DNA from: a virus
Taxonomy: Duplodnaviria; Heunggongvirae; Uroviricota; Caudoviricetes
DNA: 64,000 nucleotides
Reading direction: 5' to 3' (one strand)
Virus record (IMG/VR): IMGVR_UViG_3300028042_000001
Span: 28,944-92,943 of that record
Positions 9,883 through 63,859 of this stretch are shown one piece after another. Below the pieces are notes generated by a model. That model searched no databases. It was not told where the DNA came from and saw only the letters and a list, made by a program, of their open reading frames with translations. The translations under genes were made by a program, and so were the position numbers. Position 1 is the stretch's first letter. Every line of letters begins with the position of its first letter.

Positions 9883-9885
9883 TAA

Positions 9886-10641
9886 ATGGCTATTACTAAT
9901 ATAAATATATCAGATAATACAAATGCATCTGTAGATTATAAAAATAATAATAATACAACAAATCTATTATTATCAGATACTTCTACTATATATAATAAAT
10001 TTGTTGTTAATGAATCTGAAGATATCATATTTATAATTCATCCTACATTAAGGATATCGGATTATATTAAACGAATACCAGAAGAATTATTAGAAGTTAA
10101 TGATAGTTCAAGAATAAATGTTGATTTTAGAAATACTCAAAAAGAAAATATAGTAATTTCTGATTCTACTATTTCTCATTTACATACTATTCAGACAGTA
10201 AATGATTCTATTAATTTTAGATCTGAAGTTCGTGGTAATGTAATATATGGCCCAGATACATCAGCAAGCAATACAACCATAACAGATTCAGTTTTTGCAT
10301 TTATATCAAAACACTCTTCAAGAAACTTTAAAAATGCCATGTTTAATCTTCTTGGGACAACAGAAGAAATAATTTATACATGTGATGTAAAAAATACAAC
10401 AATTATTAATATTTCTTTATGTAATCGTACTTTAAATAACATTAATATTGATGTTTTATTATATAAAAGTGGAATTCCTATATATATAATGAAAGGTATA
10501 TTAGTAAAACCACATCAATCTTATGTTATAAATAATAATAGCGAAACAAATGTACAATTAGAAGGATCTGATGAAATAAGAATGATTACTGATACTGATA
10601 ATTCATCAGATATTTATATGGCTTTAATGGAACAATCATAG
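9886..10641 (+). CDS. Virion structural protein (tail-associated)
   Basis: C-terminal half (FKNA...IYTC...IINISLCNRT..L..SDEI) is paralogous to the next ORF. Confidence 0.55.
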   Translation: MAITNINISDNTNASVDYKNNNNTTNLLLSDTSTIYNKFVVNESEDIIFIIHPTLRISDYIKRIPEELLEVNDSSRINVDFRNTQKENIVISDSTISHLHTIQTVNDSINFRSEVRGNVIYGPDTSASNTTITDSVFAFISKHSSRNFKNAMFNLLGTTEEIIYTCDVKNTTIINISLCNRTLNNINIDVLLYKSGIPIYIMKGILVKPHQSYVINNNSETNVQLEGSDEIRMITDTDNSSDIYMALMEQS

Positions 10642-10651
10642 GAAAATAAAA

Positions 10652-10996
10652 ATGTCAATAGAATTTAAAAATAAAACAACACAAGGTATAGGAACTGGAT
10701 TTACTGAAGTTTATGCTTGTCCCGGAAGTGTTAATTCATCTGTAATTTTTGGTATGACTATTGCAAATGTAGAATCAACATCAATACCTATTACTGTAGA
10801 AGTTAGGATAGAAGATTTATCAGCAACTACATATACACATATTGTAGCACCAGATACACCGATAGAAGTAGGAGCATCACTTGTTCCTGCTGGTGGTGTT
10901 CAAAAAATAGTTTTAGAGCCGGGTGATAAAATTCAAGTTGCTTGTTCTGATGCAAGCGGAGCTGATGTTTTTATTTCAGCATTAGAACTTTCATAA
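10652..10996 (+). CDS. Small virion structural protein (FKN...VYxxP...IFGMTIAN family)
   Basis: Motif pattern common in tail-fibre-adjacent phage proteins. GGAAA RBS upstream. Confidence 0.6.
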   Translation: MSIEFKNKTTQGIGTGFTEVYACPGSVNSSVIFGMTIANVESTSIPITVEVRIEDLSATTYTHIVAPDTPIEVGASLVPAGGVQKIVLEPGDKIQVACSDASGADVFISALELS

Positions 10997-11008
10997 AAAG
11001 AGGAAAAA

Positions 11009-13126
11009 ATGACATATATAGGAAGAGAAGCACAATTACAAGGTGCGTATGATAAAGTTGATGATATATCAAGTCAATTTAATGGAACATTAGATACATT
11101 TGATATAAAAGTTAATACAGTAAATAAAATGATTGGAAAGACTACTAATCTTATTGTTGGTCTTAATAGAGCATTACAAGAACCTAATGATGATTATCAA
11201 ATATCAAATCATCAAATTATATTTACTGTAGCTCCTGCAAATGGAGTCAAATGTTCTATAACTATCCTCGGTGATGTATTTAAAGCACCAACAACAGGAA
11301 ATACAGATCTTAATAGCCTTACAGATGTTGTAGTAGGCTCTGAGAACGATAATGAAGTTCTTACCTATAGTGGAGGGTCTTGGATAAACTTACCACAAGG
11401 AACAACACATTTAAGCAATAATTCAGATGTTGATACATCATCAGCAGTTAATGGTGATAAATTAGTATTTGATGGAATTGAATGGAGTGGAGAACATGAT
11501 TTATTAAATAATATTAATAATGTTAATGCTCCTTCTCCTTCTGATAATCAAACTTTAACATGGAATGATACTGCTGGTGAATGGCAACCAATGGATGCTC
11601 AATCAACAGTTTCTAATATTGATGATTTGGATGATGTTGATACCGTTACATCTGCTCCATCATTAAATAATGTGCTTACTTGGGATGGGTCTAATTGGGT
11701 TCCTCAAACAACACAATCTGTAGTAAATTCTATGGATGATCTTAATGATGCAGATACTTCAACTGTACCTCCAATAGACGGTCAAGCGTTAGTATGGAAT
11801 GCTTCTGTTTCTAATTGGAATCCCGGTACAGTATCTGGTGGAGGTGGAGCTTCAGCAATAGATGATCTTAGTGATGTTGATACTGTTACATCTGCTCCAA
11901 GTTCAGGACAATCTCTTGTTTGGGATGGATCTAATTGGGTTCCCGGTACAGTATCTGGTGGAGGTGGAGCTTCTACAGGAGATATTCAAATATATATAGC
12001 AAATACGGGAGATGATACAACAGGTGATGGATCTAGTGGTTCTCCTTATAGAACAATAAATAGAGCAATAGATCATGCTAATAATATAATAACTACTAAT
12101 GGTATTATATATATTAAAATGGTAGATGATAATATTAACTATATGGGATCATCAACTGTTACTATAAATCATCCAAATAAAATTATATGTATGTCTGTAA
12201 CAGGAGATACTTATAATTTAGAATCATCAACTCTTGATGTATTATTTAATATTGTTAATAGTAATATCACTTTTGAACAATGTAAGTTTGAAATTGTTGA
12301 TGAATCTGTATTTAATTTGACATCTGGTAATAATTCAATAACTTTAAAGGAATGTAGTGGTAGTTTTAAATATTTTTGCACACAAGCATTAACACAATTT
12401 GGATATAATGATAATAATAGATTATCAATACATGAATCGTCTTTCATGCCTATGAATACAACTACATTTCTTAATTTTGGATACCTAGATTTTCAAAATG
12501 TTACTTTTGATGGTAATAATATGACTCTTAATATTCCATACATATATACTAAAAAATGTAATATACATAACTTTAATGTTATTATAAAAAATCCACCACA
12601 AAATTCAAAATCAGTATTCAAATTTTATTATTCAAATATATTTAACGTAAATATAGATTTAGATGATCCTTATACAGAACATTCCAGTTTCAATGATGGT
12701 TTATGTTATTTTGATGGTTGTAATATAAATGATATTACATTCACCCTACATTATAATACAGCATCAGTTATAAGTTTTAATTCGTGTAATGTTAATGATT
12801 TATATTATGTTAATAATAGTAATCTTACCGGAAATAATGGGGATGGTCAATTAATAGAAGCTAGAGGGGGGTCTAATATATCAATAAATACATTAGACCG
12901 AGATCCAAATAGTGATGATTTTACTGGTACTTATATATTAAAAGCATCAGCTAGATCATTTATATCCGTATCTAATATAAATAATTATGGCGAAGAAGGT
13001 GATTTCACAACCGCACCAACATATAGACATCCCGGAGACAACTTTGTATTTGATGGTTCTAATAGTGGTGGATGTATATATATCAACAATGTATATAATG
13101 AAGATGATGGTGGAGGTGAAGAATAG
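11009..13126 (+). CDS. Tail fibre/spike-like protein with LxDLxDV...LxWDGSNWVP repeats and C-terminal beta-helix
   Basis: N-terminus MTYIGR...DDISSQFNG, ~40-aa fibre repeats with duplicated DNA (CCCGGTACAGTATCTGGTGGAGGTGGAGCTTC twice, 120 bp apart), and beta-helix cap YIANTGDDTTGDGSSGSPYRTINRA. Confidence 0.7.
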   Translation: MTYIGREAQLQGAYDKVDDISSQFNGTLDTFDIKVNTVNKMIGKTTNLIVGLNRALQEPNDDYQISNHQIIFTVAPANGVKCSITILGDVFKAPTTGNTDLNSLTDVVVGSENDNEVLTYSGGSWINLPQGTTHLSNNSDVDTSSAVNGDKLVFDGIEWSGEHDLLNNINNVNAPSPSDNQTLTWNDTAGEWQPMDAQSTVSNIDDLDDVDTVTSAPSLNNVLTWDGSNWVPQTTQSVVNSMDDLNDADTSTVPPIDGQALVWNASVSNWNPGTVSGGGGASAIDDLSDVDTVTSAPSSGQSLVWDGSNWVPGTVSGGGGASTGDIQIYIANTGDDTTGDGSSGSPYRTINRAIDHANNIITTNGIIYIKMVDDNINYMGSSTVTINHPNKIICMSVTGDTYNLESSTLDVLFNIVNSNITFEQCKFEIVDESVFNLTSGNNSITLKECSGSFKYFCTQALTQFGYNDNNRLSIHESSFMPMNTTTFLNFGYLDFQNVTFDGNNMTLNIPYIYTKKCNIHNFNVIIKNPPQNSKSVFKFYYSNIFNVNIDLDDPYTEHSSFNDGLCYFDGCNINDITFTLHYNTASVISFNSCNVNDLYYVNNSNLTGNNGDGQLIEARGGSNISINTLDRDPNSDDFTGTYILKASARSFISVSNINNYGEEGDFTTAPTYRHPGDNFVFDGSNSGGCIYINNVYNEDDGGGEE

Positions 13127-13167
13127 TAATAAATATATTAATTTAATATCAATCATATAACACCATT

Positions 13168-13199
13168 AAAAGCATTCTCATTTTGAGAGTGCTTTTTTT
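13168..13199 (+). terminator. Rho-independent terminator-like hairpin
   Basis: AAAAGCATTCTC-ATTTT-GAGAGTGCTTTT followed by a T run. Confidence 0.7.
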
Positions 13200-13215
13200 A
13201 TGCCTAAATATAAAT

Positions 13216-16200
13216 ATGAATAAGTTTAAATACGATCCAAATAACACAGAAGGGGCATACCCTACAGCAATGGTTTTAGAAGGAGCAGAATTAAAGAAAG
13301 GTAACAAAATTCTTGCTACTGATATTGTAAATTTATATGATGTTAATATAAATAATCCTCAAAACCAACAAGCATTAACATATGTTGGTGATGAATGGAT
13401 TAATGGTGAAGTTACTAGTGGTTCTGGTGGATGTAATATATTTAAAGGGTATGATGGAGATATAGAAATTCCTTTTGATGCTGTTAATGTTTCTTGTGGT
13501 CATTATCACACATTAGCGATAAAACAAGATGGAACTCTTTGGGGTACTGGTAGTAATTCTTATGGACAGTTAGGTCTTGATGTTATAGTTACTAGAAATG
13601 TTTTTACTCAAGTTGGTTATGATAATGATTGGATTAATGTTTCTTGTGGTGGATATCACACATTAGCAATAAAAGAAGATGGAACTCTTTGGGCTACTGG
13701 TGATAATAATATTGGTCAATTAGGTTTAGGAGATAATATTAATAAAAATGTTTTTACTCAAGTTGGTACTGATACTGATTGGGATAAAATTTCTTGTGGA
13801 TTTGACCATACATTATTAATAAAACAAGATGGAACTCTTTGGGCTACAGGAAAAAATTATTGGGGCGAATTAGGACTTGGAAATAATGTTGATAGAAATG
13901 TTTTTAATCAAGTAGGTACTGACACTGATTGGATTAATGTTTCTTGTGGTGGATATCACACATTAGCAATAAAAGAAGATGGAACTCTTTGGGGTACAGG
14001 AGAAAACCATAAAGGTCAATTAGGACTTGGAGATAACATTGATAGAAATGTTTTTAATCAAGTTGGTTCTGATACTGATTGGATTACTGTTTCTTGTGGG
14101 GGTAATTATACTATATCATTAAAACAAGATGGAACTCTTTGGAGTACAGGAGAAAACCATAAAGGTCAATTAGGACTTGGAAATAATGTTGATAGAAATG
14201 TTTTTACTCAAATAGGTACTGACACTGATTGGGATAAAATTTCTTGTGGGGGTGTTCATACATCGTCAATAAAACAAGATGGAACTCTTTGGAGTACAGG
14301 AGAAAACCATAAAGGACAATTAGGTCTTGGTAATGATATTAATAGAAATGTTTTTACTCAAATTGGTACTGATACTGATTGGGATAAAATTTCTTGTGGT
14401 TTTATTCACACTATAACAATGAAACAATATGGAACTCTTTGGAGTACTGGATATAACTATTCTGGGCAATTAGGACTTCGAGATGTCAATAATAGAATTA
14501 TATACACACAAATAAAATATGATAATATAGTTAATAATTCTATATTTATAGATGAAAACACAACAACTCCCGGATTAGGTCAATATAATACCCCATTTCC
14601 AACATTAAATAGTTGTTTTGAATGGTTAAGAAATAGTTGTGTTGTAATACCAGAAGATAACACATTATATATACAGATTATATCAGATTTAATAATATAT
14701 GAAAAAGTATCATTAAATCATCCATATGGTTATAATATAAAAATATGTGGTAATAATCATAAAATAAGTACATCTTATGATTTATATATAGAAATTGAAA
14801 AATATACTGCACTTTCTTATAATTTTATTAAAGTTGTGCGTGGTGGTGAATTTACATATGGACTAAAAAATGACGGTACTCTTTGGGCAACAGGTTTTAA
14901 TAATGCAGGGCAGTTAGGTCACTCAAATATCATAATATCAGAAATAAATGTATTTATACAAGTAGGTTCTGACACCGATTGGAAAGATATAGTTTGTAAT
15001 GGAAGTTATGCTATAGCGACAAAAAAAGATAATACTATTTGGGGAACTGGATATAATTTTTCTGGTCAATTAGGACTTGGAGATATAAATAATTTTTATT
15101 CATTTACTCAAATAGGTACTGATACTGATTGGAAAATAATTTCATGTGGTTTGAGTTATGTGATGGCTTTAAAACAAAACGGTACTCTTTGGGTTACTGG
15201 TTCTAATCATTATGGGCAGTTAGGGCTTGGAGATAATGTTGATAGGAATGTTTTTACTCAAGTTGGTTCTGATACTGATTATAAATTCATAGATGCTAAT
15301 TCTAACAGATCATTAATAATAAAACAGAATGGTACTCTTTGGGCTACTGGTCAAAATAATTATGGTCAATTAGGACTAGGAGATGTTAATAATAGAAATG
15401 TTTTTGAACAAGTAGGTATTGATAATGATTATTCTTTTTCTACAGGAGAATATAATGCAACTACAGTAAAAAAAAATAATGGAACTATTTGGGCTACTGG
15501 AAGAAATGATCATGGTCAATTAGGACTTGGAGATAATGTTGATAGAAATGTTCTTACACAAGTTGGTACTAATACTGATTGGGATATTTTAGATGGTTCA
15601 TTTGCTATAAAAGAAGATGGAACTCTTTGGGCTACTGGATATAATTATTATGGTCAATTAGGTCTTGGAGATAATGATGATAGAAATGTATATACCCAAG
15701 TAGGAAATAATTCTAATTGGGTATTTGTTGATAATGCATTTCATACAATAATAGTTAATAATGAAGGGTATATATTTGGTACTGGATGGAATTATAGAGG
15801 ACAATTAGGGCTTGGTGATAACATAAATACCAATATATTTACTCAATCACTTCATAATATATATACATTAGATATATCTGGGACAGATCCTTATTTTTTT
15901 ATTGATAATAATAATAAAATAAATATTTCTGATATTATATTTAAAATGAATATATATTTTGATAATGATAATGCAGATGAAGGGTTGGTTCATGATTATT
16001 ATATTGATATTAATAATATATATGCCTCAAATAATTCTATTATAATAATGAATAATATTAAATTTACATCAAGTAATATATTATTAATAAAGGGTATATC
16101 ATCAATTAATGAATACGCAGTTATACATATTAAAGATTCACCTCTAAAAATTTCTTCAAGTTTAGGTATATTTACAGGTACAATACCTTCAAATATATCA

Positions 16201-16362
16201 ATCGATGATAATTCTACTTTAGAATTATCAGACTTAAATTATAATATAACTAATTGGAAAGTTAATAATAATTCTTTTATTATAATTAATACTGAAAATA
16301 ATCCCACAATAGATATAGAAAATGAAAATTCAACAGTAATATTAAACGATGCCAAAATTTAA
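13216..16362 (+). CDS. Fibre-like protein A with two RCC1/BLIP-II beta-propellers (7+7 repeats)
   Basis: Repeats of SCGxxHTxxIKxDGTLWxTGxNxxGQLGLG. Likely start MNKFKYDPNNTEG at 13216, matching the paralog N-termini. Confidence 0.85.
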   Translation: MNKFKYDPNNTEGAYPTAMVLEGAELKKGNKILATDIVNLYDVNINNPQNQQALTYVGDEWINGEVTSGSGGCNIFKGYDGDIEIPFDAVNVSCGHYHTLAIKQDGTLWGTGSNSYGQLGLDVIVTRNVFTQVGYDNDWINVSCGGYHTLAIKEDGTLWATGDNNIGQLGLGDNINKNVFTQVGTDTDWDKISCGFDHTLLIKQDGTLWATGKNYWGELGLGNNVDRNVFNQVGTDTDWINVSCGGYHTLAIKEDGTLWGTGENHKGQLGLGDNIDRNVFNQVGSDTDWITVSCGGNYTISLKQDGTLWSTGENHKGQLGLGNNVDRNVFTQIGTDTDWDKISCGGVHTSSIKQDGTLWSTGENHKGQLGLGNDINRNVFTQIGTDTDWDKISCGFIHTITMKQYGTLWSTGYNYSGQLGLRDVNNRIIYTQIKYDNIVNNSIFIDENTTTPGLGQYNTPFPTLNSCFEWLRNSCVVIPEDNTLYIQIISDLIIYEKVSLNHPYGYNIKICGNNHKISTSYDLYIEIEKYTALSYNFIKVVRGGEFTYGLKNDGTLWATGFNNAGQLGHSNIIISEINVFIQVGSDTDWKDIVCNGSYAIATKKDNTIWGTGYNFSGQLGLGDINNFYSFTQIGTDTDWKIISCGLSYVMALKQNGTLWVTGSNHYGQLGLGDNVDRNVFTQVGSDTDYKFIDANSNRSLIIKQNGTLWATGQNNYGQLGLGDVNNRNVFEQVGIDNDYSFSTGEYNATTVKKNNGTIWATGRNDHGQLGLGDNVDRNVLTQVGTNTDWDILDGSFAIKEDGTLWATGYNYYGQLGLGDNDDRNVYTQVGNNSNWVFVDNAFHTIIVNNEGYIFGTGWNYRGQLGLGDNINTNIFTQSLHNIYTLDISGTDPYFFIDNNNKINISDIIFKMNIYFDNDNADEGLVHDYYIDINNIYASNNSIIIMNNIKFTSSNILLIKGISSINEYAVIHIKDSPLKISSSLGIFTGTIPSNISIDDNSTLELSDLNYNITNWKVNNNSFIIINTENNPTIDIENENSTVILNDAKI
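13489..14510 (+). repeat. Seven tandem 150-bp RCC1-coding repeats (gene A, block 1)
   Basis: 150-bp period of AAACAAGATGGAACTCTTTGG...GGTCAATTAGG. Boundaries approximate. Confidence 0.9.
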
Positions 16363-19300
16363 TTATAATCCAAATAACACAGAAGGAATATATCCAACAT
16401 CAATAGATTTTATTGATACCGAAGTGAAAAAAGGAAATAAAATTATCGCTACAGATATAGTTGATTTATATGATACATATCCAGAATCACAAACACCAAA
16501 TCAAGGAGATGCATTAGTTTATGATTCTATCGATGGTATATGGAAACCCGGAGAAGGTGCAGGGGGAAGTTCATGTAATGTATTTGAAGGGTATGATAGT
16601 GTTGTTAATATTCCTTTTGATGCTGTTCATGTTTCTTGTGGTCATTATCACACATTAGCGATAAAACAAGATGGAACTCTATGGGCTACTGGTCAAAATT
16701 ATGGAGGTCAATTAGGACTTGGAGATAATGTTGATAGAAATGTTTTTAATCAAGTTGGTACTGATACTGATTGGATTAATGTTTCTTGTGGTCATTATCA
16801 CACATCGTCAATAAAACAAGATGGAACTCTTTGGAGTACTGGTCTAAATAATGAAGGTCAATTAGGTCTTGGAGATAACATTAATAGAAATGTTTTTACT
16901 CAAATAGGTACTGATACTGATTGGGATAAAATTTCTTGTGGTGGATATCACACATTATTAATAAAACAAGATGGAACTCTTTGGAGTACTGGTGATAATT
17001 CTTTTGGGCAATTAGGACTTGGAAATAATGTTGATAGAAATGTTTTTACTCAAATAGGTACTGATACTGATTGGGATAAAATTTCTTGTGGATCTCTTCA
17101 TACATCGTCAATAAAACAATATGGAACTCTTTGGAGTACTGGATATAACTATTCTGGGCAATTAGGTCTTGGAGATAACATTGATAGAAATGTTTTTACT
17201 CAAGTTGGTACTGATACTGATTGGGATAAAATTTCTTGTGGTTTTATTCATACATCATCAATAAAACAAGATGGAACTCTTTGGAGTACTGGTCTAAATA
17301 ATGAAGGTCAATTAGGACTTGGAGATAACATTGATAGAAATGTTTTTAATCAAGTTGGTTCTGATACTGATTGGGATAAAATTTCTTGTGGTATTTATCA
17401 TACATCAGTAATAAAAGAAGATGGAACTCTTTGGAGTACTGGTGATAATTCTTTTGGGCAATTAGGTCTTGGAGATAACATTGATAGAAATGTTTTTACT
17501 CAAATAGGTACTGATACTGATTGGGATAAAATTTCTTGTGGTATTTATCATACATCAGTAATAAAGCAAAACGGAACTCTTTGGGCTACTGGAAGAAATG
17601 ATCATGGTCAATTAGGTATTGGTGATAATGTTAATAAAAATTTTTTTCATCAAGTTGGTTCTGATACTGATTGGGATAAAATTTCTGGTGGTATTTATCA
17701 TACATTAACAACAAAACAAAACGGAAATCTTTGGGCTACTGGTGACAACCAATGGGGGCAATTAGGTCTTAGGGATAATATTAATGTAAATATTTTTACT
17801 CAAATAAAGTATAATATTAATTATACAAATTCTATATTTATAAACAAAAATACATCAACTCCCGGAAATGGAACTTATGATAATCCATTTTTAACTCTAA
17901 AAGAATGTTTTGAATATTTAAATACATGCAATACAATTCCCGATGAAATCACACTTACTATCCAATTATTATCTGATGTTATTAATACAGAACCAACATC
18001 TTTAAATCATCCTCAAGGATATAATATTGTTATTAATGGTAATAATCATAATATTATAAATATAAATAATGGAAATTTAGAATATCCTTATTCATATCCT
18101 GTATATATTAATGATTGGAACTATGTATCTGGTGGTTATTTACACACCACAGCTATAAAAAACGATAATACTCTTTGGGTTACTGGAAGAAATGATCATG
18201 GTCAATTGGGTTTAGGACATAATTACGAAATAATTTATTTTGAACAAGTTGGTATTAATAATGATTGGATTAATGTTTCTTGTGGAAAATATTGTACGGT
18301 AGCTATTAAATTAAATAGAACTCTTTGGAGTACAGGAGAAAACCATAAAGGTCAATTAGGTCTTGGAGATGATGTTGATAGAAATGTTTTTACTCAAATT
18401 GGTACTGATACTGATTGGGATAAAATTTCTTGTGGAGAAACTCACACATTAGCAATAAAACAAGATGGAACTCTTTGGAGTACTGGTTGGAATTATGGAG
18501 GTCAATTAGGTCTTGGAGATAACATTGATAGAAATGTTTTTACTCAAATAGGTACTGATACTGATTGGGATAAAATTTCTTGTGGATCTCTTCACACATT
18601 AGTAATAAAACAAGATGGAACTCTTTGGAGTACTGGAAGAAATATTCGTGGGCAATTAGGACTTGGAGATAACATTGATAGAAATGTTTTTAATCAAGTT
18701 GGTTCTGATACTGATTGGGATAAAATTTCTTGTGGAGAAACTCACACATTAGCAATAAAACAAGATGGAACTCTTTGGAGTACTGGTCTAAATAATGAAG
18801 GTCAATTAGGACTTGGAGATAATGTTGATAGAAATGTTTTTAATCAAGTTGGTACTGATACTGATTGGAATAATATTTATTGTGGTTCTCAACACACATC
18901 ATTAATAAAAAATAATGGAACTATATGGACTACTGGAAGAAATTTTGTAGGGCAATTAGGTCTTGGTGATAATATTAATAGGAATGTTTTTAATCAAGTT
19001 GGTAATGATACTGATTGGAAATTATTATATGGTGGGTATTTACATACATTAGCTATTAAATCAAATGGAATTCTTTATGCAACTGGATGGAATCGTTTCG
19101 GTCAATTAGGTCTTGGAGATAATGATGATAGGAATGTTTTTGAATATTTATTTACATATGAATATAAATTCAAATCAAAATTGGTATTAAATAATAATCA
19201 TTCAATAAAAAAAATTATTAATGTTAATTTTAATACTTATATTATTAATTATAATTATACAATACCAATATTAACACATATTAATATTGATGATTTATCA

Positions 19301-19567
19301 ATTACATCATTTGATAACATAAATGAAATTAATAACAATTATACATCATATTTAGATATTTCATCAAAATCAATAGTAAATATTAATAATTTTAATATAA
19401 AACATATATCATCAACTGACTCTATTTGTAATATTGACAATTGTAATTATTTATTAAATTATAATTTAATAAATAATTCTACATTAATTATTAAAAAACA
19501 GCCAATAGTATATCCAGTAATTCATAATTATGAATCAATATATATTATAAATGGGATATCACAATAA
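16349..19567 (+). CDS. Fibre-like protein B with two RCC1/BLIP-II beta-propellers (8+7 repeats)
   Basis: Same 50-aa repeats. N-terminus MPKFNYNPNNTEG is paralogous to A. Confidence 0.85.
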   Translation: MPKFNYNPNNTEGIYPTSIDFIDTEVKKGNKIIATDIVDLYDTYPESQTPNQGDALVYDSIDGIWKPGEGAGGSSCNVFEGYDSVVNIPFDAVHVSCGHYHTLAIKQDGTLWATGQNYGGQLGLGDNVDRNVFNQVGTDTDWINVSCGHYHTSSIKQDGTLWSTGLNNEGQLGLGDNINRNVFTQIGTDTDWDKISCGGYHTLLIKQDGTLWSTGDNSFGQLGLGNNVDRNVFTQIGTDTDWDKISCGSLHTSSIKQYGTLWSTGYNYSGQLGLGDNIDRNVFTQVGTDTDWDKISCGFIHTSSIKQDGTLWSTGLNNEGQLGLGDNIDRNVFNQVGSDTDWDKISCGIYHTSVIKEDGTLWSTGDNSFGQLGLGDNIDRNVFTQIGTDTDWDKISCGIYHTSVIKQNGTLWATGRNDHGQLGIGDNVNKNFFHQVGSDTDWDKISGGIYHTLTTKQNGNLWATGDNQWGQLGLRDNINVNIFTQIKYNINYTNSIFINKNTSTPGNGTYDNPFLTLKECFEYLNTCNTIPDEITLTIQLLSDVINTEPTSLNHPQGYNIVINGNNHNIININNGNLEYPYSYPVYINDWNYVSGGYLHTTAIKNDNTLWVTGRNDHGQLGLGHNYEIIYFEQVGINNDWINVSCGKYCTVAIKLNRTLWSTGENHKGQLGLGDDVDRNVFTQIGTDTDWDKISCGETHTLAIKQDGTLWSTGWNYGGQLGLGDNIDRNVFTQIGTDTDWDKISCGSLHTLVIKQDGTLWSTGRNIRGQLGLGDNIDRNVFNQVGSDTDWDKISCGETHTLAIKQDGTLWSTGLNNEGQLGLGDNVDRNVFNQVGTDTDWNNIYCGSQHTSLIKNNGTIWTTGRNFVGQLGLGDNINRNVFNQVGNDTDWKLLYGGYLHTLAIKSNGILYATGWNRFGQLGLGDNDDRNVFEYLFTYEYKFKSKLVLNNNHSIKKIINVNFNTYIINYNYTIPILTHINIDDLSITSFDNINEINNNYTSYLDISSKSIVNINNFNIKHISSTDSICNIDNCNYLLNYNLINNSTLIIKKQPIVYPVIHNYESIYIINGISQ
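16631..17810 (+). repeat. Eight tandem 150-bp RCC1-coding repeats (gene B, block 1)
   Basis: The TG(x) loop recurs at 16691, 16841, 16991, 17141, 17291, 17441 and onward. Boundaries approximate. Confidence 0.9.
18125..19145 (+). repeat. Seven RCC1-coding repeats (gene B, block 2)
   Basis: Central units are near-identical to block 1 units. Boundaries approximate. Confidence 0.85.
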
Positions 19568-21534
19568 TGACTAAGTTAATATTTAATAATAATAACACAG
19601 AAGGGCACTACACAACATCTTTTGATTTTATAGATACAGAAGTAAGGAAAGATGATAAAATAGTTGCTACAGATCTAATAGACCTATACGATGTTGAATT
19701 AACTAATGTTCAGAATGGTGAAATATTAGTATATAATTCAACAAAGCAAAAATGGGTAAATGGAGAAGCAGGAGCTGGTTGTAATACAACAACACATAAT
19801 AAAAAATATAGTATTGGTCAATTTGGTGATTTTATATCATTAAATGAATGTTTTAATTGGTTAAGAAATAATTGTAAAATAATAAAAGAATATAATACAA
19901 TAACTATATATTTAAAAGAGAATATTGATATAAAAGAACATACATCATTAAATCATCCATATGGGCATAGAATAATTATTGATGGTGATTATAATGAGAT
20001 ACGTACTCATTATGATGATATTATAGATAATAATATATCATTATCTCATTCTCATAATATTACTATTAAAAATACTTTTATAAAATCATCATATGTTGGT
20101 GATGATTTAGAAGAAAAATATGCATTTATAATGAATACGGATGGATATTTTACCCCATATATAAGAAATTGTTTTTTAACTAATCATGATAATATTATTT
20201 ATTGTTTTGGTGGGTTAGAATATGATGGATCTGGAAATTTAATAAATAATAATAAAAAAGTATATAAATGTGAGTCTGTATTATATTCTAGATGGGAAGA
20301 ATACGATACTAATATACCATATAATGTTATTGTTTCTGAATATTGTATAAAATACAATAATAAAATATTATTATTTAATAATAATAATAATGGTTTTGAT
20401 ACAATATGGGTATATAATTTTGATACAAATATATGGTCTGAAAGTGCAGTTTCGTCAGGAGATATTCCATCTACTGATGATATAACTGCTGGATACACTT
20501 TATCATTATATAATGATAAAGTGTATCTTATAGGTGGATATCCTCATAATAATTCAATATATATATATGATATAATATCAAATTCTTGGTCTAAATTAGC
20601 AGATATACTTGGTATTATGGGATATATTTATCATTCATCATATATATATGATGATAAGATTTATATATATGGAGGACAAGGAACTAATGATCAAGAAAAT
20701 TTTAATGGATTATTGTCTTTTGATTTATTATCTAATGATATAAACATAATAATACCAAACACTTCTTATCATGATAATTCTTCTACTCCTTATAAAAGAG
20801 GTTTATACCGTCATCATTCATATATTAATGATGACGGTATAATGTTTATATATTCTGGAATAGGAAAATCAATTTCAAATCCTTATATTCTTGATGCTCA
20901 AAAATTTATATATACGTATAATATAAGAGATAATATATGGAATATTCATGATGATGGTATTTATGGTTATGCCAATTATGGATTTACTGTATTAAATGAT
21001 ATATCATATATATTAGGTGGATATGTTGCTTATAATAATATTTCTGGGAAAAGATACCCAAGTAATAAATTTGTAAAAATACATAATAATGAAAAAGTAT
21101 TTGAAATTGATAATAAACCATCATCAGAATTTATTACAAGTAATAAACACACATATACAAGTTCATTAGTTATTACTAACAATTCATTAATAAATACTAG
21201 AGATGTTGTAAGTATAGCTAATGGCCCTTATTATAGAGATCCTGTTTTAGTAACAAGAGCAATAGAAATTTCGTATCATAATACATACATAATAGAAAAA
21301 CTAAATATTAACTTGTTTGAAATAAATAATAATTCATTGTTTCATAATGATGGTTATTATGAAACATCAGGACATATAAATTCAATGTTAATATATAATA
21401 ATAGTTCATTGTATATGGAACCTCCAAAAAATGTATGGTATACAATAAAAAATGGAAGCATGGTTTTGAGTAGTAATATACAAAATTTTACAAATTCTAC
21501 ATTTGTAAATTCAAAATTAATAGAGAAAAAATAA
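19567..21534 (+). CDS. Fibre-like protein C with Kelch beta-propeller
   Basis: Kelch motifs (YCFGG, YLIGG, YIYGG, YILGG, Y..W). N-terminus and internal SLNHPYG module are shared with A and B. Confidence 0.75.
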   Translation: MTKLIFNNNNTEGHYTTSFDFIDTEVRKDDKIVATDLIDLYDVELTNVQNGEILVYNSTKQKWVNGEAGAGCNTTTHNKKYSIGQFGDFISLNECFNWLRNNCKIIKEYNTITIYLKENIDIKEHTSLNHPYGHRIIIDGDYNEIRTHYDDIIDNNISLSHSHNITIKNTFIKSSYVGDDLEEKYAFIMNTDGYFTPYIRNCFLTNHDNIIYCFGGLEYDGSGNLINNNKKVYKCESVLYSRWEEYDTNIPYNVIVSEYCIKYNNKILLFNNNNNGFDTIWVYNFDTNIWSESAVSSGDIPSTDDITAGYTLSLYNDKVYLIGGYPHNNSIYIYDIISNSWSKLADILGIMGYIYHSSYIYDDKIYIYGGQGTNDQENFNGLLSFDLLSNDINIIIPNTSYHDNSSTPYKRGLYRHHSYINDDGIMFIYSGIGKSISNPYILDAQKFIYTYNIRDNIWNIHDDGIYGYANYGFTVLNDISYILGGYVAYNNISGKRYPSNKFVKIHNNEKVFEIDNKPSSEFITSNKHTYTSSLVITNNSLINTRDVVSIANGPYYRDPVLVTRAIEISYHNTYIIEKLNINLFEINNNSLFHNDGYYETSGHINSMLIYNNSSLYMEPPKNVWYTIKNGSMVLSSNIQNFTNSTFVNSKLIEKK

Positions 21535-21538
21535 AAAG

Positions 21539-21546
21539 TATAAATA
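21539..21546 (+). promoter_or_regulatory. T4-type late promoter TATAAATA
   Basis: Intergenic exact TATAAATA upstream of an AAGGAG RBS. A gp55 gene is present in the window. Confidence 0.7.
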
Positions 21547-21572
21547 GTATTATAATATTTAAGGAGATAAAA

Positions 21573-22067
21573 ATGGATAATTTTAAAATAGGTGGTGTTT
21601 TTTTAGTAACATGTTATGATAGTGATCATAATGTAAAATGGCAAGATAAATCTAAAAATCTTGTAGTTACTGTTGGATTAGAACATATTCTTGATGGTTT
21701 GTATTCCCTTGGAGGTGTTGTTGCTAATCCAAATTATTATATAGGGTTAGCATCAGCTTCTCCTACTATAGTAGCTGGTGATACATTAGCTTCTCATGGA
21801 GGATGGAATGAAATATCTGATTATGATGAAACGGAAAGGCAATCTTTTGTGGTTGCTCGTGCTGGATTAATGGCTACTAACTCTGCTAATAAGGCTGTAT
21901 TTTCTATAAACGCTACAGCAACGGTTGGTGGTGCGTTCTTATCATCAGTAGATACAGGAACTACAGGTTTGTTATTATCAGCAAGTGCATTTTCTAACGG
22001 AGATAAGCCTGTTACTGCTGGTGATACTGTAGAAGTTCAATATGATTTTACAGCTTCAAGTTCTTAA
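21573..22067 (+). CDS. Conserved phage virion protein (hypothetical)
   Basis: KW...KNLVVTVGLEHILD...YYIGL pattern with good RBS and late promoter. Confidence 0.6.
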   Translation: MDNFKIGGVFLVTCYDSDHNVKWQDKSKNLVVTVGLEHILDGLYSLGGVVANPNYYIGLASASPTIVAGDTLASHGGWNEISDYDETERQSFVVARAGLMATNSANKAVFSINATATVGGAFLSSVDTGTTGLLLSASAFSNGDKPVTAGDTVEVQYDFTASSS

Positions 22068-22089
22068 TTAATAATAAAAGGAGATTATT

Positions 22090-22377
22090 ATGTGTGATAT
22101 TAACAAAAATAATGAAGTATTTTCGTATCAAATAAATCCCGGTGCAAAAAATGAGAAAAGGGGTTTTAAAGAAAATGATAATTGGAAACATAAATCTGAT
22201 AATATGATTTGTAAAACATGCATGTATTATATGAAAAAACATATATGTTTAGAAACATCAATAGAGGTTGGTAGATGTAAAAGAAACGCTCCATCTAATA
22301 TTGGGTTTCCTGTTGTATTTCCTAGTGATTGGTGTGGAGAACATAAAATTGATCATGAGAAATTGTTATGCGGTTAA
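22090..22377 (+). CDS. Small Cys-rich protein (CxxC-x18-C-x18-C, HiPIP-like pattern)
   Basis: CKTC...GRC...DWCGE; AAGGAG RBS. Confidence 0.6.
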   Translation: MCDINKNNEVFSYQINPGAKNEKRGFKENDNWKHKSDNMICKTCMYYMKKHICLETSIEVGRCKRNAPSNIGFPVVFPSDWCGEHKIDHEKLLCG

Positions 22378-22436
22378 TATATATTATAGCATCATTAATG
22401 TATTATTATCAATACATACCAGCATTATTTTAATTA

Positions 22437-22468
22437 TTAAAGGGGAATATTTATTTATTCCCCTTTAA
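22437..22468. terminator. Bidirectional terminator between convergent genes
   Basis: Perfect 13-bp stem TTAAAGGGGAATA / TATTCCCCTTTAA with a 6-nt loop. Confidence 0.8.
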
Positions 22469-22473
22469 TAATA

Positions 22474-22731
22474 TTATGAACATCTATTATAAACAAGACC
22501 TTTAGCAAGATGTTTGAAAAAATCATTAACATCTCCATTAGAAAAATCAATTTTAACTATTGTATCTTTGATAGCCTTTTTTTCATTAATACTACAAGAT
22601 ATAATAGCATCAATCACACAATCAGAATCTATAAAATTAATTTCTCCATTTGTATCCATTATTTCCCATTCTAAATAAGGAAGGTTTTTTTCTTCAAGAA
22701 AAGTTTCAAACCATTCGTTAAAATCACTCAT
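22474..22731 (-). CDS. Conserved phage hypothetical protein (early-type)
   Basis: Likely start MSDFNEWFETFLEEK with GAGGA RBS. Motif IKDTIVKIDFSNGDVNDFFKHLA. Confidence 0.65.
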   Translation of the reverse strand: MSDFNEWFETFLEEKNLPYLEWEIMDTNGEINFIDSDCVIDAIISCSINEKKAIKDTIVKIDFSNGDVNDFFKHLAKGLVYNRCS

Positions 22732-22755
22732 TATATAATCCTCATTTAATATTGA

Positions 22756-22802
22756 TTGTCTCAAGTATGTTACCATTATACATTATTAAATTAATAAGTC
22801 AA
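22756..22802 (-). promoter_or_regulatory. Sigma70-type early promoter plus conserved downstream motif
   Basis: TTGACT-16-TATAAT, then 5 nt, then CATACTTGAGACAA. Confidence 0.75.
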
Positions 22803-22854
22803 GATTTATTTTAACATAAATAATAATATATAGAAAATTAAGGAGAATTTAATA

Positions 22855-23610
22855 ATGTTACCAAAAGATAAAGATGAGTTTGTAGATTATTGTTTAAGGA
22901 GTTTAGGGGCACCTGTTATTGATATAAATGTTGATCCTGATCAAGTAGATGATAGGGTTGATGAAGCTTTACAATTTTATCAAACATACCATTATGATGC
23001 TATAGAACATGTAGCAATAACATATGAACTTACTCAGGATGATATTGATAATAAATATATTATCATTCCTTCTGATATATTATCAGTTATAGATATGGTT
23101 TATGATGGAGAAGGTTCTATAAAAGGTGGATTTGGTAATAATTTATGGCATGGTATGAATGCTATTGCTTATGATATAGGATTTGGTTCAGGAGCATGTA
23201 GATATGGAACATCTTATTATCACTCTATGATGAATTATATGGCTGAATTAAAGTTTTCATTCAAAGTAAATCATGCAATAGAATTTCAATACAAAAATCA
23301 TCACGTTAGTATTAATATGGATTGGAGTAAGTTAAAAGTAGGAGGAATATTAGCTTTTGATGTATATAGAATAATAGATCCAGAAAAATTTGGTGATGTT
23401 TGGTCAGATAGAAGTCTTCAAGAATATGCTATATGTCTTATCGGAGAACAATGGGGAGTAAATCTTTCAAAATTTGATGGTGTGGAACTTCCGGGTGGAT
23501 TAACTCTTGATGGTGATAAAATTTTTGATAGATATCATGATAGAAGAGTATTATTAGAAGAAGAATATAGTTTAAAATGGGAAGAGCCTGTAGATTTTTT
23601 TATAGGATAA
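22855..23610 (+). CDS. gp13: Neck protein, T4 gp13-like
   Basis: DYCLRSLGAPVIDINV..QVDDRVDEALQFY and QWGVNLSKFDGVELPGGLTLDG. Confidence 0.92.
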   Translation: MLPKDKDEFVDYCLRSLGAPVIDINVDPDQVDDRVDEALQFYQTYHYDAIEHVAITYELTQDDIDNKYIIIPSDILSVIDMVYDGEGSIKGGFGNNLWHGMNAIAYDIGFGSGACRYGTSYYHSMMNYMAELKFSFKVNHAIEFQYKNHHVSINMDWSKLKVGGILAFDVYRIIDPEKFGDVWSDRSLQEYAICLIGEQWGVNLSKFDGVELPGGLTLDGDKIFDRYHDRRVLLEEEYSLKWEEPVDFFIG

Positions 23611-23612
23611 TT

Positions 23613-25181
23613 ATGAAATCATATAAAGAATTATTAATAGAAAAGAAAGATCATATAATAAAACGGTTAAAAAATTTGTCAAAAGAAGAGAAATCTTTAT
23701 TAATATCGTTTTTTAAAAAAAATCCCCATACAGAAAATAAAATTGATTGGAATAATAATAATCTTATTTTTAATGATTTTAAAGATATTCTTACTAGTGT
23801 ATCAAAACGCAAGAAAAAACGAGCATTAAAAGATAAAGGAATTAGAGGACTAAAAAAAGGCGAAGATTATATCAATATTAAATTAAAAAATAAAGAATAT
23901 CTTGCTTATATTCCTCTAAATTATGAAGCATCTAAATCTATAGCAACTGCTCATATAGGAAATTGTGAGGGAAAATGGTGTGTTGCTTATCAAAAATCTA
24001 GTATATATTGGCAACATTATAATTATCAAGGATCTAATGATGGAGGTTCTAGTAGCATTTTTGTTTATATTATAGGTAATGGTACTAAATGGGCTATGGA
24101 TATCAAAGGAAGCACTTATGATGTGTGGAATGCAGAAGATAAACAAACTATAGAAAATGGAAATCCAACATCATATGCATTACAGAATTTAAATAATAAA
24201 CCATATCCTGTTGATGGAGTTATGCATGATATAATGTCAAAAAAACGATTGTTTGATGATATTAAACAATCTAAAGTTGATAAAAAAATATCATTTATAG
24301 AAAAAGCTAAAACAAGAAATTCCACATATGGAACATTAGATGTTGGTATTGATATTCCCGGAACAAAATCAAAGCAAAGTGATAATGTTTGGTTCTCTGG
24401 TGATTGGATTAGTGGTACTTGGCATAGTGGTAGTTTTATAGGGTATGATAGCGTTTGGTATAATGGTATATGGTTAGGAGGAAGTTTTAATGCTCCTTAT
24501 TGGAGAAATGGTACATGGAAATATGGTGTATGGAATATAGATAAAAACCAATCAGAATGGAAAAATGGTACTTGGGAAAATGGATATTGGTATTATGGTA
24601 CTTGGAAATCTGGACTTTGGGAAAATGGATGGTGGGGTGATGGACTTTGGGAAGATGGAATTTGGGAAAATGGTACTTGGAAAAACGGCACTCATGTAAC
24701 GGGTCAATGGGAAACAGGTACTTGGGAAAATGGCACTTGGGAAAATGGTATATGGCTTGATGGTGCTTGGAAAAATGGTATCTGGGAAAATGGTGAGTGG
24801 AAAGATGGTATATGGCATCGGGGAAGATGGAAAACTGGTAGTTGGTTTGGTGGGATTTTTATAGATGGTCAATGGGAAGATGGACATTGGTATAATGGTA
24901 CATGGTTAAAAGGTATTTGGACTTCTGGTAGATGGCATGGTGGAGAACATAGAAATGGTATTTGGATATCAGGGGAATGGTTAGGTGGTAAATGGATAGA
25001 TGGTACATGGAAAGATGGTATATGGCTTGATGGTATATGGAAATCTGGAAAATGGGAAAAAGGTATCTGGGAAGGTGGATATGATGAAAAAGGATATTAT
25101 CATGAAAAAGGTGATTCTCCTGATAAATGGGATTATGAAAAAATATCAAGACGAAGAAAAAAACATATAAGAAGGAATTAA
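23613..25181 (+). CDS. Putative internal head protein, paralog P1 (shared N-domain plus W-x-x-G-x repeat tail)
   Basis: Leader MKSYKELLIE; GEDY..AYIPLNY...WC motif; long GTWENG-type repeat region. Confidence 0.7.
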   Translation: MKSYKELLIEKKDHIIKRLKNLSKEEKSLLISFFKKNPHTENKIDWNNNNLIFNDFKDILTSVSKRKKKRALKDKGIRGLKKGEDYINIKLKNKEYLAYIPLNYEASKSIATAHIGNCEGKWCVAYQKSSIYWQHYNYQGSNDGGSSSIFVYIIGNGTKWAMDIKGSTYDVWNAEDKQTIENGNPTSYALQNLNNKPYPVDGVMHDIMSKKRLFDDIKQSKVDKKISFIEKAKTRNSTYGTLDVGIDIPGTKSKQSDNVWFSGDWISGTWHSGSFIGYDSVWYNGIWLGGSFNAPYWRNGTWKYGVWNIDKNQSEWKNGTWENGYWYYGTWKSGLWENGWWGDGLWEDGIWENGTWKNGTHVTGQWETGTWENGTWENGIWLDGAWKNGIWENGEWKDGIWHRGRWKTGSWFGGIFIDGQWEDGHWYNGTWLKGIWTSGRWHGGEHRNGIWISGEWLGGKWIDGTWKDGIWLDGIWKSGKWEKGIWEGGYDEKGYYHEKGDSPDKWDYEKISRRRKKHIRRN

Positions 25182-63501: not shown

Positions 63502-63512
63502 GATAGAAACAT

Positions 63513-63585
63513 TGGCAGGTAGCAATAATGGTATTGCGTCTGACTGTTAATCAGAAGAGAATAGGTTCGATCCCTATCCTGTCAG
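63513..63585 (+). tRNA. trnN: tRNA-Asn(GTT)
   Basis: Acceptor TGGCAGG/CCTGTCA; anticodon arm TCTGA-CTGTTAA-TCAGA; T arm ATAGG-TTCGATC-CCTAT; no encoded CCA. Confidence 0.88.
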
Positions 63586-63592
63586 AAAATGT

Positions 63593-63667
63593 TCCGTATA
63601 ATGATCGGGGTGGTCAAGGTGACTGTTAATCACTTGCTGGTAGGTTCGACTCCTGCATACGGAGCCA
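63593..63667 (+). tRNA. trnN: tRNA-Asn(GTT), atypical second copy
   Basis: Acceptor TCCGTAT/ATACGGA, G discriminator, CCA; GGTGA-CTGTTAA-TCACT; A at position 8 and a short D-loop. Confidence 0.78.
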
Positions 63668-63859
63668 AATTTTATATTATGGTGTTATTATGAATGATCT
63701 TGGAAATGTAGATTTTGGGTTTGAAGATATGAGTGGATGATATGTTTGAAGGAACACCAGATAATTTCGCTGATTGTTTTTTTAGTAATGTTGATGAATA
63801 TAATGTCAGAGAATTTGCTAAAGAACAGAATGTTAGATGTAGAATATTTTATTAATAAT

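What the first reader, a model, noticed from the sequence alone, without database searches (positions are those of the whole stretch)
13216..21534. Three tandem fibre genes built on one scaffold with plug-in beta-propellers (RCC1, RCC1, Kelch)
Seen: A, B and C all start F.(Y/F)N.NNTEG.Y.T...E..K..KI.ATD...LYD, followed by an L.Y...W..GE..G..C segment. All contain an internal F..L..CF.WL...C..I....TI.......SLNHP.G..I.I.G module and end in N/I-rich beta-helix-like sequence. A and B insert one RCC1 propeller before and one after the module; C has none before it and a Kelch propeller after it. Established: RCC1/BLIP-II and Kelch propellers are protein-binding scaffolds, mostly eukaryotic or in giant viruses and rare as T4-like fibre domains. 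The internal module resembles the cap that begins phage beta-helix spikes, as in ORF 11009. Inference: a modular receptor-binding or adhesin set in which unrelated propellers occupy the same slot.
Basis: partly seen in the sequence, partly recalled or inferred. Interest (0 to 1): 0.8.

Follow-up and report, generated by a model that had tools for sequence, protein, structure and literature searches.

The report
Phage spike scaffold with plug-in propellers
An uncultured T4-like phage has three neighbouring tail-spike-like genes built on one small beta-helix scaffold, into which RCC1 or Kelch propeller domains are spliced at up to three fixed points; related phages fill these points differently or leave them empty, so this looks like a natural mix-and-match system for host recognition.

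Summary
A (13216-16362), B (16349-19567) and C (19567-21534) share a 75-88-residue N-terminal domain and an internal cap module at significant E-values. A and B each carry two RCC1 propellers; C carries one Kelch propeller.

Relatives add three points:
- Eight complete, propeller-less relatives (316-374 aa) exist; three were looked up on their contigs and sit in the same gene order. The scaffold is therefore self-contained. Its body folds as a right-handed parallel beta-helix (AlphaFold2 pLDDT 84.7; Z 10-13 to tailspikes, adhesins and pectin esterases).
- There are three insertion points, not one. Across relatives each holds RCC1, Kelch or nothing. C's Kelch probably sits in slot 3, while A and B use slots 1 and 2.
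- Between phages the N-terminal domains are conserved (72-80%) and the propellers diverge (27-56%). Within this genome the propellers are closest to each other. One pair of alleles breaks from about 94% to 33% identity exactly at a slot boundary.

Best reading: modular receptor-binding spikes of the baseplate or neck region. Virion location and binding are inferred, not shown. No homologue of the scaffold was found in 50,697 deposited phage genomes. Another first-stage reader noted the RCC1 blade pattern on this same stretch. Verdict: new variant of a known kind, moderate interest.

The parts
13216..16362 (+). Gene A (1048 aa), A-type spike: anchor, RCC1, cap module, RCC1, beta-helix
   Evidence: 49% identical to the propeller-less P0089 over the scaffold columns
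13216..13470 (+). A, N-terminal anchor domain (aa 1-85): type-specific head, one fibre repeat, Gly-rich linker, conserved Cys
   Evidence: scaffold HMM positions 1-88, E 2e-36; alignment A1
13471..14520 (+). A, slot 1 insert: RCC1 propeller, 7 repeats of exactly 50 aa
14521..14811 (+). A, beta-helix cap module (aa 436-532; PF..L..CF.WL...C ... SLNHPYG)
   Evidence: scaffold HMM positions 82-176, E 6e-32; cap helix in the model of the homologue
14812..15843 (+). A, slot 2 insert: second RCC1 propeller (7 repeats)
15844..16359 (+). A, remaining beta-helix rungs with the A-type C-terminal end (NENST.I.NDA.I)
   Evidence: scaffold HMM positions 174-335; beta-helix in the P0089 model
16349..19567 (+). 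Gene B (1072 aa), B-type spike. Anchor 16349-16612; RCC1 in slot 1, 16613-17809 (8 repeats); cap module 17810-18088; RCC1 in slot 2, 18089-19153 (7 repeats); beta-helix end 19154-19564. Its start overlaps the end of A by 14 nt.
19567..21534 (+). Gene C (655 aa), C-type spike. Anchor 19567-19791; cap module plus NxITIK rung 19792-20094; Kelch propeller 20095-21156 (probably slot 3); beta-helix end 21157-21531. Its ATG shares one base with the stop codon of B.
11009..13126 (+). ORF 11009 (D, 705 aa): fibre with a tail-fibre N-terminus, about six fibre repeats and a capped beta-helix. It is the likely evolutionary source of the A/B/C scaffold.
   Evidence: PHROG tail-fibre families; hhalign against the scaffold, probability 96.9%; scaffold HMM hit on the L005 homologue of D, positions 40-273, E 2.4e-12
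13168..13204 (+). Terminator-like hairpin (13-bp stem followed by a U run) between D and A
   Evidence: -15.6 kcal/mol, z -5.7, 0 of 200 shuffles fold as well
21573..22377 (+). Two small genes (164 aa, phrog_8123; and 95 aa ending WCGEHK..EKLLCG) that follow the C-type gene in the related loci that extend past it

Best explanation
A, B and C are three paralogous tailspike-like virion proteins of an uncultured marine-type T4-like myovirus. Their likely role is host-surface recognition.

Each protein has three parts:
1. A 75-88-residue N-terminal anchor: a type-specific head of about 33 residues, one copy of a common tail-fibre repeat, then a Gly-rich linker with an invariant Cys.
2. A compact right-handed parallel beta-helix of about 280 residues. 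It is opened by a helical cap module and acts as a rigid chassis.
3. Beta-propellers spliced in at up to three permissive points: slot 1 before the cap, slot 2 after the cap module, and slot 3 after the 'NHSIK' rung. This is inferred to be possible because a propeller's two chain ends lie side by side.

How it is inferred to work:
- The A-, B- and C-type anchors are conserved between phages, so each paralogue probably docks at its own site on the baseplate or neck periphery.
- The propellers are the variable, ligand-binding parts.

Diversity arises in three ways:
- Cassettes are exchanged at slot boundaries.
- Propellers within one genome are copied or converted into one another.
- Change within each 50-residue RCC1 blade is confined to about 9 positions.

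Shown here: the domain architecture, the fold of the scaffold, the slot map, the conserved gene order and the mosaic pattern. Inferred: virion location, oligomeric state (probably a trimer) and binding function.
For: Context. The genes lie in a T4-type structural block, after a gp8-like gene, a giant DUF4815 protein and fibre-like genes, and before gp13, gp14, gp15, terminase, sheath and portal. This is where T4 has genes 9-12 and wac (gene order from established knowledge).

Co-expression. A, B and C overlap (14 nt and 1 nt). Homologous loci show overlaps too.

Anchor. Profile positions 34-72 of the anchor match a tandem repeat in 4,336 proteins. Some of these carry Pfam Phage_tail_C or the endosialidase chaperone domain.

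Scaffold is self-contained. Eight complete propeller-less homologues exist; three were looked up on their contigs and lie in the same gene order.

Fold. The P0089 model has pLDDT 84.7. Residues 75-363 form a right-handed beta-helix with Z 10-13 to cyanophage Pam1 tailspike, CBA120 TSP3, phi29 gp12, the adhesins SRRP and PfbA, and pectin methylesterases. Slots 2 and 3 fall where model confidence dips.

Slot map.

Receptor-binding-protein signature. Between homologues in different phages the anchor is 72-80% identical and the propellers 27-56%. P0113 and P0140 are about 94% identical through anchor and slot 1, about 80% in the module segment, and fall to 33% right after SLNHPYGYMITI.

Exchange within the genome. 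A slot 1 vs B slot 1 is 74%; B slot 1 vs B slot 2 is 72%. Both exceed any cross-phage match in the same slot.

Blade variability. It is confined to positions 4, 5, 8, 9, 21, 23, 24, 48 and 49 of the 50.
Against: - There is no proteomic, imaging or binding evidence. No cultured relative carries the scaffold: tblastn of C residues 1-160 against 50,697 phage records found nothing.
- The host is unknown.
- The model of C itself is poor beyond residue 180 (mean pLDDT 50.9). C's slot assignment and the shape of its Kelch therefore rest on sequence.
- The anchor is modelled with only moderate confidence (pLDDT 52-78).
- The oligomeric state could not be tested.
- The claim that the variable blade positions lie on one face rests on generic propeller topology, not on a model.
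- Fold matches of Z 10-13 among beta-helices show a shared fold only, not a function.
Confidence: 0.65

Rival explanations
1. The proteins are enzymatically active tailspikes. The beta-helix would be a polysaccharide esterase, lyase or hydrolase that degrades a capsule or surface glycan, and the propellers would be auxiliary carbohydrate-binding modules.
For: The best structural matches include pectin methylesterases, pectate lyases, alginate lyases and capsule depolymerase tailspikes (Z 11-13). The motif SLNHP.G in the first rungs is conserved across all three types.
Against: No Pfam or PDB sequence match to any enzyme family was found, even at E <= 1. The helix is short (about 280 aa). Adhesins with the same fold score equally well (5nxk Z 12.2, 3zpp Z 11.1). 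Conservation is highest in the cap, which is a structural element. No catalytic residues could be identified.
Confidence: 0.12
2. The proteins are neck or collar appendages, or general 'sticky' decorations comparable to T4 whiskers or Hoc, rather than baseplate receptor-binding proteins. They would sense the environment or hold the virion to particles or non-host surfaces.
For: C lies just upstream of gp13 and gp14, the position of wac in T4 (T4 gene order from established knowledge). Propeller-less forms show that the propellers are dispensable add-ons.
Against: The three anchor types are conserved and the distal parts turn over fast with cassette exchange. This is the usual pattern for host-range determinants. 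The scaffold derives from a tail-fibre-like gene, D.
Confidence: 0.15
3. The proteins are not part of the virion. They would be intracellular or secreted late proteins that use RCC1 and Kelch as protein-protein interaction modules against host targets.
For: In eukaryotes RCC1 and Kelch act as intracellular interaction scaffolds (established knowledge). E. coli jumbo phages carry arrays of stand-alone RCC1 and Kelch genes of unknown role.
Against: The genes lie inside the structural block. The anchor contains a tail-fibre repeat. The body has a tailspike fold and is homologous to the fibre gene D. No signal peptide or head-targeting leader is apparent at the N-terminus, which is conserved as MxxFxYNxNNTEG (reading).
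Confidence: 0.05

Closest known systems
Phage tailspike and tail-fibre receptor-binding proteins with a right-handed parallel beta-helix (cyanophage Pam1 tailspike 7eea, CBA120 TSP1-4, phi29 gp12)
   Same: A conserved N-terminal anchor is followed by a capped right-handed beta-helix. Several paralogues lie side by side in the tail module. Distal parts are exchanged by recombination. Fold match Z 10-12.4.
   Different: No sequence similarity to them. The helix is short (about 280 aa) and serves as a carrier. Whole 340-400-residue RCC1 or Kelch propellers are inserted between its rungs at three fixed points, and the propellers, not the helix, are the variable element. Trimer state is untested.
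RCC1-like proteins annotated in cultured phages (Synechococcus phage S-SRM01; Clostridioides phages phiCD211 and LIBA2945; PHROGs 7220, 4219, 16766)
   Same: RCC1 propellers are encoded in or next to tail-fibre genes of large phages. Identity to A is 32-39%.
   Different: The S-SRM01 proteins are stand-alone propellers of 345-405 aa, and phiCD211 has a 1,759-aa multi-RCC1 protein. None has this anchor and beta-helix scaffold. None is functionally characterised as far as I could find in the paper library.
Arrays of stand-alone RCC1 and Kelch genes in E. coli jumbo phages (for example phages Turkey3 and A4)
   Same: RCC1 and Kelch propellers occur together as expanded, adjacent paralogue sets in one phage.
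   Different: There each gene encodes a single free propeller of about 300-450 aa. Here the propellers are domain insertions in a structural scaffold. Identity to A is about 23%.
Beta-propeller receptor-binding domains of phages (phage K1F endosialidase; Staphylococcus phage P68 receptor-binding protein)
   Same: A propeller serves as the distal, ligand-contacting element of a tail protein (my own knowledge; these papers surfaced but were not read).
   Different: Different propeller families (sialidase-type or 5-bladed), placed terminally or as the catalytic core. They are not interchangeable cassettes in helix loops.
BLIP-II (an RCC1-like seven-bladed propeller that binds beta-lactamase)
   Same: A prokaryotic RCC1-type propeller used purely as a tight protein binder through loops on one face (my own knowledge; not tested here).
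   Different: A free secreted protein from Streptomyces, with no link to a virion scaffold.

Membership tests
RCC1-like beta-propeller (Pfam PF00415 / PF13540 / PF25390) | Tandem repeats of about 50 residues with the G-x-L-G motif, scoring above the Pfam gathering threshold and numerous enough to close a seven-bladed propeller | tested here: met
   A: PF25390 432.8 bits (cut-off 150), 7+7 repeats. B: 513.9 bits, 8+7 repeats. Closure of the propeller was not modelled.
Kelch beta-propeller (Pfam PF24681 / PF01344 / PF13964) | Kelch repeats above the gathering threshold spanning a propeller-sized region | tested here: met
   C: PF24681 75.7 bits (cut-off 50); Kelch_6 48 bits; Kelch_1 35.4 bits; Beta-prop_ATRN-LZTR1 match over residues 273-541. 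PDB sequence hits are to Kelch proteins. The AlphaFold2 model of this part is too poor to count blades.
Right-handed parallel beta-helix (pectin-lyase-like fold, as in tailspikes) | A single-chain coil of three-stranded rungs with an N-terminal helical cap | tested here: met
   Model of P0089, a propeller-less homologue 49% identical to A: pLDDT above 90 over most of residues 80-363, cap helix at 110-119. All top VIA-align matches are right-handed beta-helices, Z 10-13.2. Foldseek found none at E <= 1e-3. For A, B and C themselves this is inferred by homology.
Polysaccharide-degrading tailspike / carbohydrate esterase or lyase families | Recognisable catalytic residues or a sequence match to an enzyme family | tested here: inconclusive
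   No Pfam hit on the scaffold segments at E <= 1. No PDB sequence hit. Fold similarity alone cannot decide.
DUF1565 (PF07602) beta-helix cap family | Pfam match to the G..PF.TI..A cap motif | tested here: not met
   No Pfam hit at E <= 1 for the module segments of A and C or for the C-terminal half of D. The only support is an ESM Atlas feature lead of 0.87. The resemblance is one of pattern and position.
Common phage tail-fibre repeat (partly covered by Pfam PF24243 Phage_tail_C) | A unit of about 36 residues, D..D...(5-8)...L.[WY]....W.P, found in tandem in tail-fibre proteins | tested here: met
   Positions 34-72 of the anchor profile hit 4,336 proteins, most with 4-33 tandem copies. Sampled hits carry PF24243 or Peptidase_S74. 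The same unit is repeated in D. A, B and C each have a single copy.
T4 gp10 / gp11 / gp12 / wac (occupants of the same genome position in T4) | Sequence or profile match to these T4 families | tested here: inconclusive
   Pfam and PHROG searches of A, B and C returned no gp9-12 or fibritin family. No structural comparison of the anchor alone was possible.

The most novel reading that the evidence does not exclude
The beta-helix is a natural three-slot display chassis, and A, B and C co-assemble through their homologous anchors into one heterotrimeric spike. The translational coupling and fixed A-B-C order would be conserved to keep a 1:1:1 ratio. One appendage would then present five (here) to seven or more propellers in a combinatorial array. 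This would be a multivalent host-recognition device without a described counterpart in phages.
Probability: 0.08. Interest if true: 0.8.

Novelty: new variant of a known kind. Interest (0 to 1): 0.55.

Why it matters
Phage host range is set by modular receptor-binding proteins, usually by swapping the C-terminal tip.

Here the variable parts are whole RCC1 or Kelch propellers. They are inserted into loops of a small, stable beta-helix at three defined points, and nature has sampled empty, single, double and triple fillings with either propeller type.

- It documents a clean natural case of domain insertion as the means of receptor-binding-protein diversification in abundant uncultured T4-like phages.
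- It gives a function-level hypothesis for the many 'regulator of chromosome condensation' and 'Kelch' annotations in phage genomes. PHROGs files the RCC1 families under DNA, RNA and nucleotide metabolism.
- It offers protein engineers a ready-made scaffold with known permissive sites, and RCC1 blades whose variability is limited to about 9 of 50 positions.
- The propellers could also serve as baits to identify the unknown host.

Tried and rejected
- Megablast of 9000-24000 against deposited phages: no match.
- tblastn of C residues 1-160 against the same set: no match.
- Word-index homologue search with the propeller-less alignment: swamped by low-complexity candidates, nothing new.
- Homologue search with C's Kelch region: one distant hit only (27% identity). 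This could not deepen the alignment, which is why the AlphaFold2 model of C failed beyond residue 180.
- The global MAFFT alignment of all family members forced all second propellers into one place. I rejected it for slot mapping and replaced it with local HMM mapping.
- Foldseek against the PDB gave no hit at E <= 1e-3. VIA-align was needed to name the fold.
- Profiles of the anchor and of D against PDB sequences: only chance-level hits.
- The T4 late-promoter motif TATAAATA is not clearly enriched (40 found against 31 expected). The copy at 13209 abuts A's ATG, so no promoter claim is made.
- The sigma-70 scan was below chance expectation.
- Literature searches for RCC1 or Kelch in phage tail or receptor-binding proteins found nothing relevant. 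The single hit was a locus-tag coincidence.
- tblastn of the conserved 164-aa downstream protein found only unnamed hypothetical proteins.
Full report
**What is in the window**

The window is AT-rich (about 27% G+C) and almost all long ORFs lie on the + strand. PHROG and Pfam searches show a T4-type structural block. It runs: baseplate wedge genes including a weak gp8 match, a 1,973-aa DUF4815 protein, three small fibre-like genes, the fibre ORF 11009 (D), then A, B and C. Two small genes follow, then gp13-, gp14- and gp15-like genes, large terminase, sheath and portal.

The record is an IMG/VR viral contig of 156,943 bp, estimated 87% complete. Its portal is 44-48% identical to those of Synechococcus T4-like phages. 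The host is unknown.

**Checking the observation**

- blastp: A vs B 54% over the full length. N-terminal domains: A vs C E 1e-13, B vs C E 1e-16. Internal module: A vs C E 1e-14, B vs C E 3e-9.
- Pfam: RCC1-like domains in A (E 1.6e-129) and B (E 3.6e-154), and Kelch in C (PF24681, 75.7 bits against a cut-off of 50).
- GQLG motifs give 7+7 repeats in A and 8+7 in B.
- B's start overlaps the end of A by 14 nt. C's ATG shares one base with the stop codon of B.
- A strong terminator-like hairpin separates D from A.

**Relatives**

The scaffold part of C (residues 1-160) has no match in 50,697 deposited phage genomes. It does have homologues in metagenomes. A profile of the 80-residue N-terminal domain was searched against 1.84 billion representative proteins, with two kinds of result:

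- About 30 proteins match the whole domain. These are the true family.
- More than 4,000 match only profile positions 34-72, usually in 4-33 tandem copies. This is a common tail-fibre repeat, also present about six times in D. Some of these proteins carry Pfam Phage_tail_C or the endosialidase chaperone domain.

The anchor is therefore a type-specific head of about 33 residues plus one fibre repeat.

Related loci (L001, L002, L003, L005, L006, L015-L017) show the same gene order where the contig is long enough. It runs: D-like fibre, A-, B- and C-type genes with overlapping ends, a 160-165-aa gene, an 89-104-aa gene (72 aa in L003) ending WCGEHK..EKLLCG, then gp13. The three anchor types are orthologous between phages.

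**The scaffold stands alone**

Eight family members of 316-374 aa have the anchor, the module, an 'NHSIK' rung, the N/I-rich remainder and the type-specific C-terminal end, but no propeller. They include all three types. The three that were looked up on their contigs occupy the same genomic position.

AlphaFold2 on one of them (P0089, 49% identical to A over the scaffold, with a 29-sequence alignment) gave mean pLDDT 84.7. Residues 75-363 are mostly above 90.

VIA-align against 48,161 PDB representatives returned only right-handed beta-helices at the top, Z 10-13.2. They include the cyanophage Pam1 tailspike, CBA120 tailspikes, phi29 gp12, the adhesins SRRP and PfbA, and pectin methylesterases. 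Foldseek found nothing at E <= 1e-3. This is the fold, not membership of a specific family.

hhalign of the scaffold against D homologues gives probability 96.9%, E 1.6e-10. The match spans the last fibre repeat, the Gly linker and the cap module. A, B and C therefore look like shortened derivatives of a D-like fibre.

**Three slots**

An HMM built from the eight propeller-less proteins was mapped locally onto all larger members. Pfam was used to name the inserts.

| Slot | Position | RCC1 in | Kelch in |
|---|---|---|---|
| 1 | after C-N-x-F-x-G-Y, before the cap | A, B, P0043, P0113, P0140, P0057, L005 | P0010, P0011, P0060 |
| 2 | after the cap module | A, B, P0005, P0006, P0008, P0010, P0043, P0140, L001 B-type | P0135, L003 B-type |
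| 3 | after the NHSIK rung | P0140, P0113, L001 B-type | P0043, P0007, P0135, probably C |

- Proteins carry zero to three propellers. P0043 has RCC1-RCC1-Kelch; P0140 has three RCC1.
- P0011 has an unnamed non-propeller insert downstream of the module.
- In C the rung ISLSHSHNITIKNTF (157-171) precedes the Kelch. The moderately confident part of the model of C places a strand there, and the closest Kelch-bearing homologue, P0007, aligns clearly that way. HMM scores for the two placements of C are nearly equal, so slot 3 is likely but not certain.
- Slots 2 and 3 coincide with dips in model confidence in P0089.

**Pattern of variation**

- Between homologues in different phages the anchor is 72-80% identical, while propellers and the C-terminal helix are 27-56%.
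- P0113 and P0140 are about 94% identical through anchor and slot-1 propeller and about 80% in the module segment. Identity drops to about 33% immediately after SLNHPYGYMITI, and the two proteins differ in the number of propellers downstream. This marks a recombination breakpoint at a slot boundary.
- Within this genome the propellers are each other's best matches regardless of gene or slot: A slot 1 vs B slot 1 74%, B slot 1 vs B slot 2 72%. The A and B anchors are only 52% identical. This indicates copying or conversion within the genome.
- The 29 RCC1 blades have an exact 50-residue period and up to 93% DNA identity to one another.
- Variation is confined to positions 4, 5, 8, 9, 21, 23, 24, 48 and 49, and the same loop variants recur in different blades.
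- By generic propeller topology the two main variable clusters would lie in loops on one face. That is inference only.

**Interpretation**

The best-supported reading is a set of three modular receptor-binding or adhesion spikes. Each is docked through its own conserved anchor at the baseplate or neck periphery. A beta-helix chassis displays exchangeable propellers.

Rivals are an enzymatically active tailspike, a whisker-like or general adhesion decoration, and a non-virion role. None is excluded. Virion location, oligomeric state and ligand are unproven.

**Comparison with what is known**

RCC1 proteins are already annotated in tail regions of cultured phages: S-SRM01, phiCD211, LIBA2945 and others, in 83 of 50,697 records. 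E. coli jumbo phages carry arrays of free RCC1 and Kelch genes. Propellers in phages are therefore not new.

New here is the specific scaffold, with no Pfam or PHROG family and no cultured member. Also new are the insertion of whole propellers between beta-helix rungs at three fixed sites and their combinatorial filling. I found no paper on this in the library.

I rate it a new variant of a known kind (modular phage receptor-binding protein), with interest 0.55.

Noticed in passing
window 20492-20527 and 20803-20842 (inside the Kelch-coding part of C): There is a perfect 36-nt palindrome and a 40-nt palindrome (95% complementary), about 313 nt apart. Each encodes the same hairpin-like element of a Kelch blade (..YTLSLYNDKVYL.. 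and ..LYRHHSYINDDGIM..). By my rough estimate this is far longer than chance allows in 64 kb. Function unknown; DNA- or RNA-level structure or a recombination signal are possibilities.
   Followed up: partly
window 20996-21007, 28999-29010, 54020-54031 and near-matches: The 12-nt palindrome ATGATATATCAT, allowing one mismatch, occurs 9 times against 2.7 expected; 0 of 100 shuffles reach 9. One copy lies in C.
   Followed up: partly
P0037 (374 aa, metagenome protein): It appears identical by eye to B at both ends but joins blade 1 of the first propeller to blade 6 of the second, at the repeat GDNVDRNVFNQVGTDTDW. It therefore lacks the cap module. This is either an assembly collapse or a real deletion allele. 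Either way, blade identity is high enough for repeat-mediated rearrangement.
   Followed up: partly
L003:15353-15649 and L003:15652-18276: In one relative the C-type gene is split exactly at slot 1. A 98-aa ORF encodes only the anchor and ends in a Gly/Ser linker. Three bases later an 874-aa ORF begins with its own ATG and carries the cap module and two Kelch propellers. This suggests the anchor can fold and dock on its own, or it is a sequencing error.
   Followed up: partly
window 21573-22067 and 22090-22377: Two small genes follow the C-type gene in the related loci that extend past it: 164 aa (phrog_8123, unknown function) and 95 aa ending WCGEHK..EKLLCG. They could be assembly factors or small structural partners of the spikes.
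   Followed up: partly
P0011 = L003:10001-12433, about residues 500-750: This A-type relative has Kelch in slot 1 and, downstream of the module, a non-propeller insert of about 250 residues rich in YD..GN-like dipeptide repeats. It has no Pfam match. The slots can therefore hold more than propellers.
   Followed up: no
window 16613-17809 (B, slot 1): This propeller has eight 50-residue RCC1 repeats rather than the seven seen in the other three. It may be an eight-bladed ring or an extra strand-swapped closure repeat.
   Followed up: no
window 63512-63933: There are two tRNA-Asn(GUU) genes and a tRNA-Ile(UAU). A, B and C are visibly rich in Asn and Ile, so these tRNAs may support late expression of the spike genes.
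   Followed up: no
PHROGs 7220, 4219, 16766: These RCC1 phage families are filed under 'DNA, RNA and nucleotide metabolism' as 'regulator of chromosome condensation'. Given the tail-module context here and in S-SRM01 and phiCD211, that category is probably a name-transfer artefact.
   Followed up: partly
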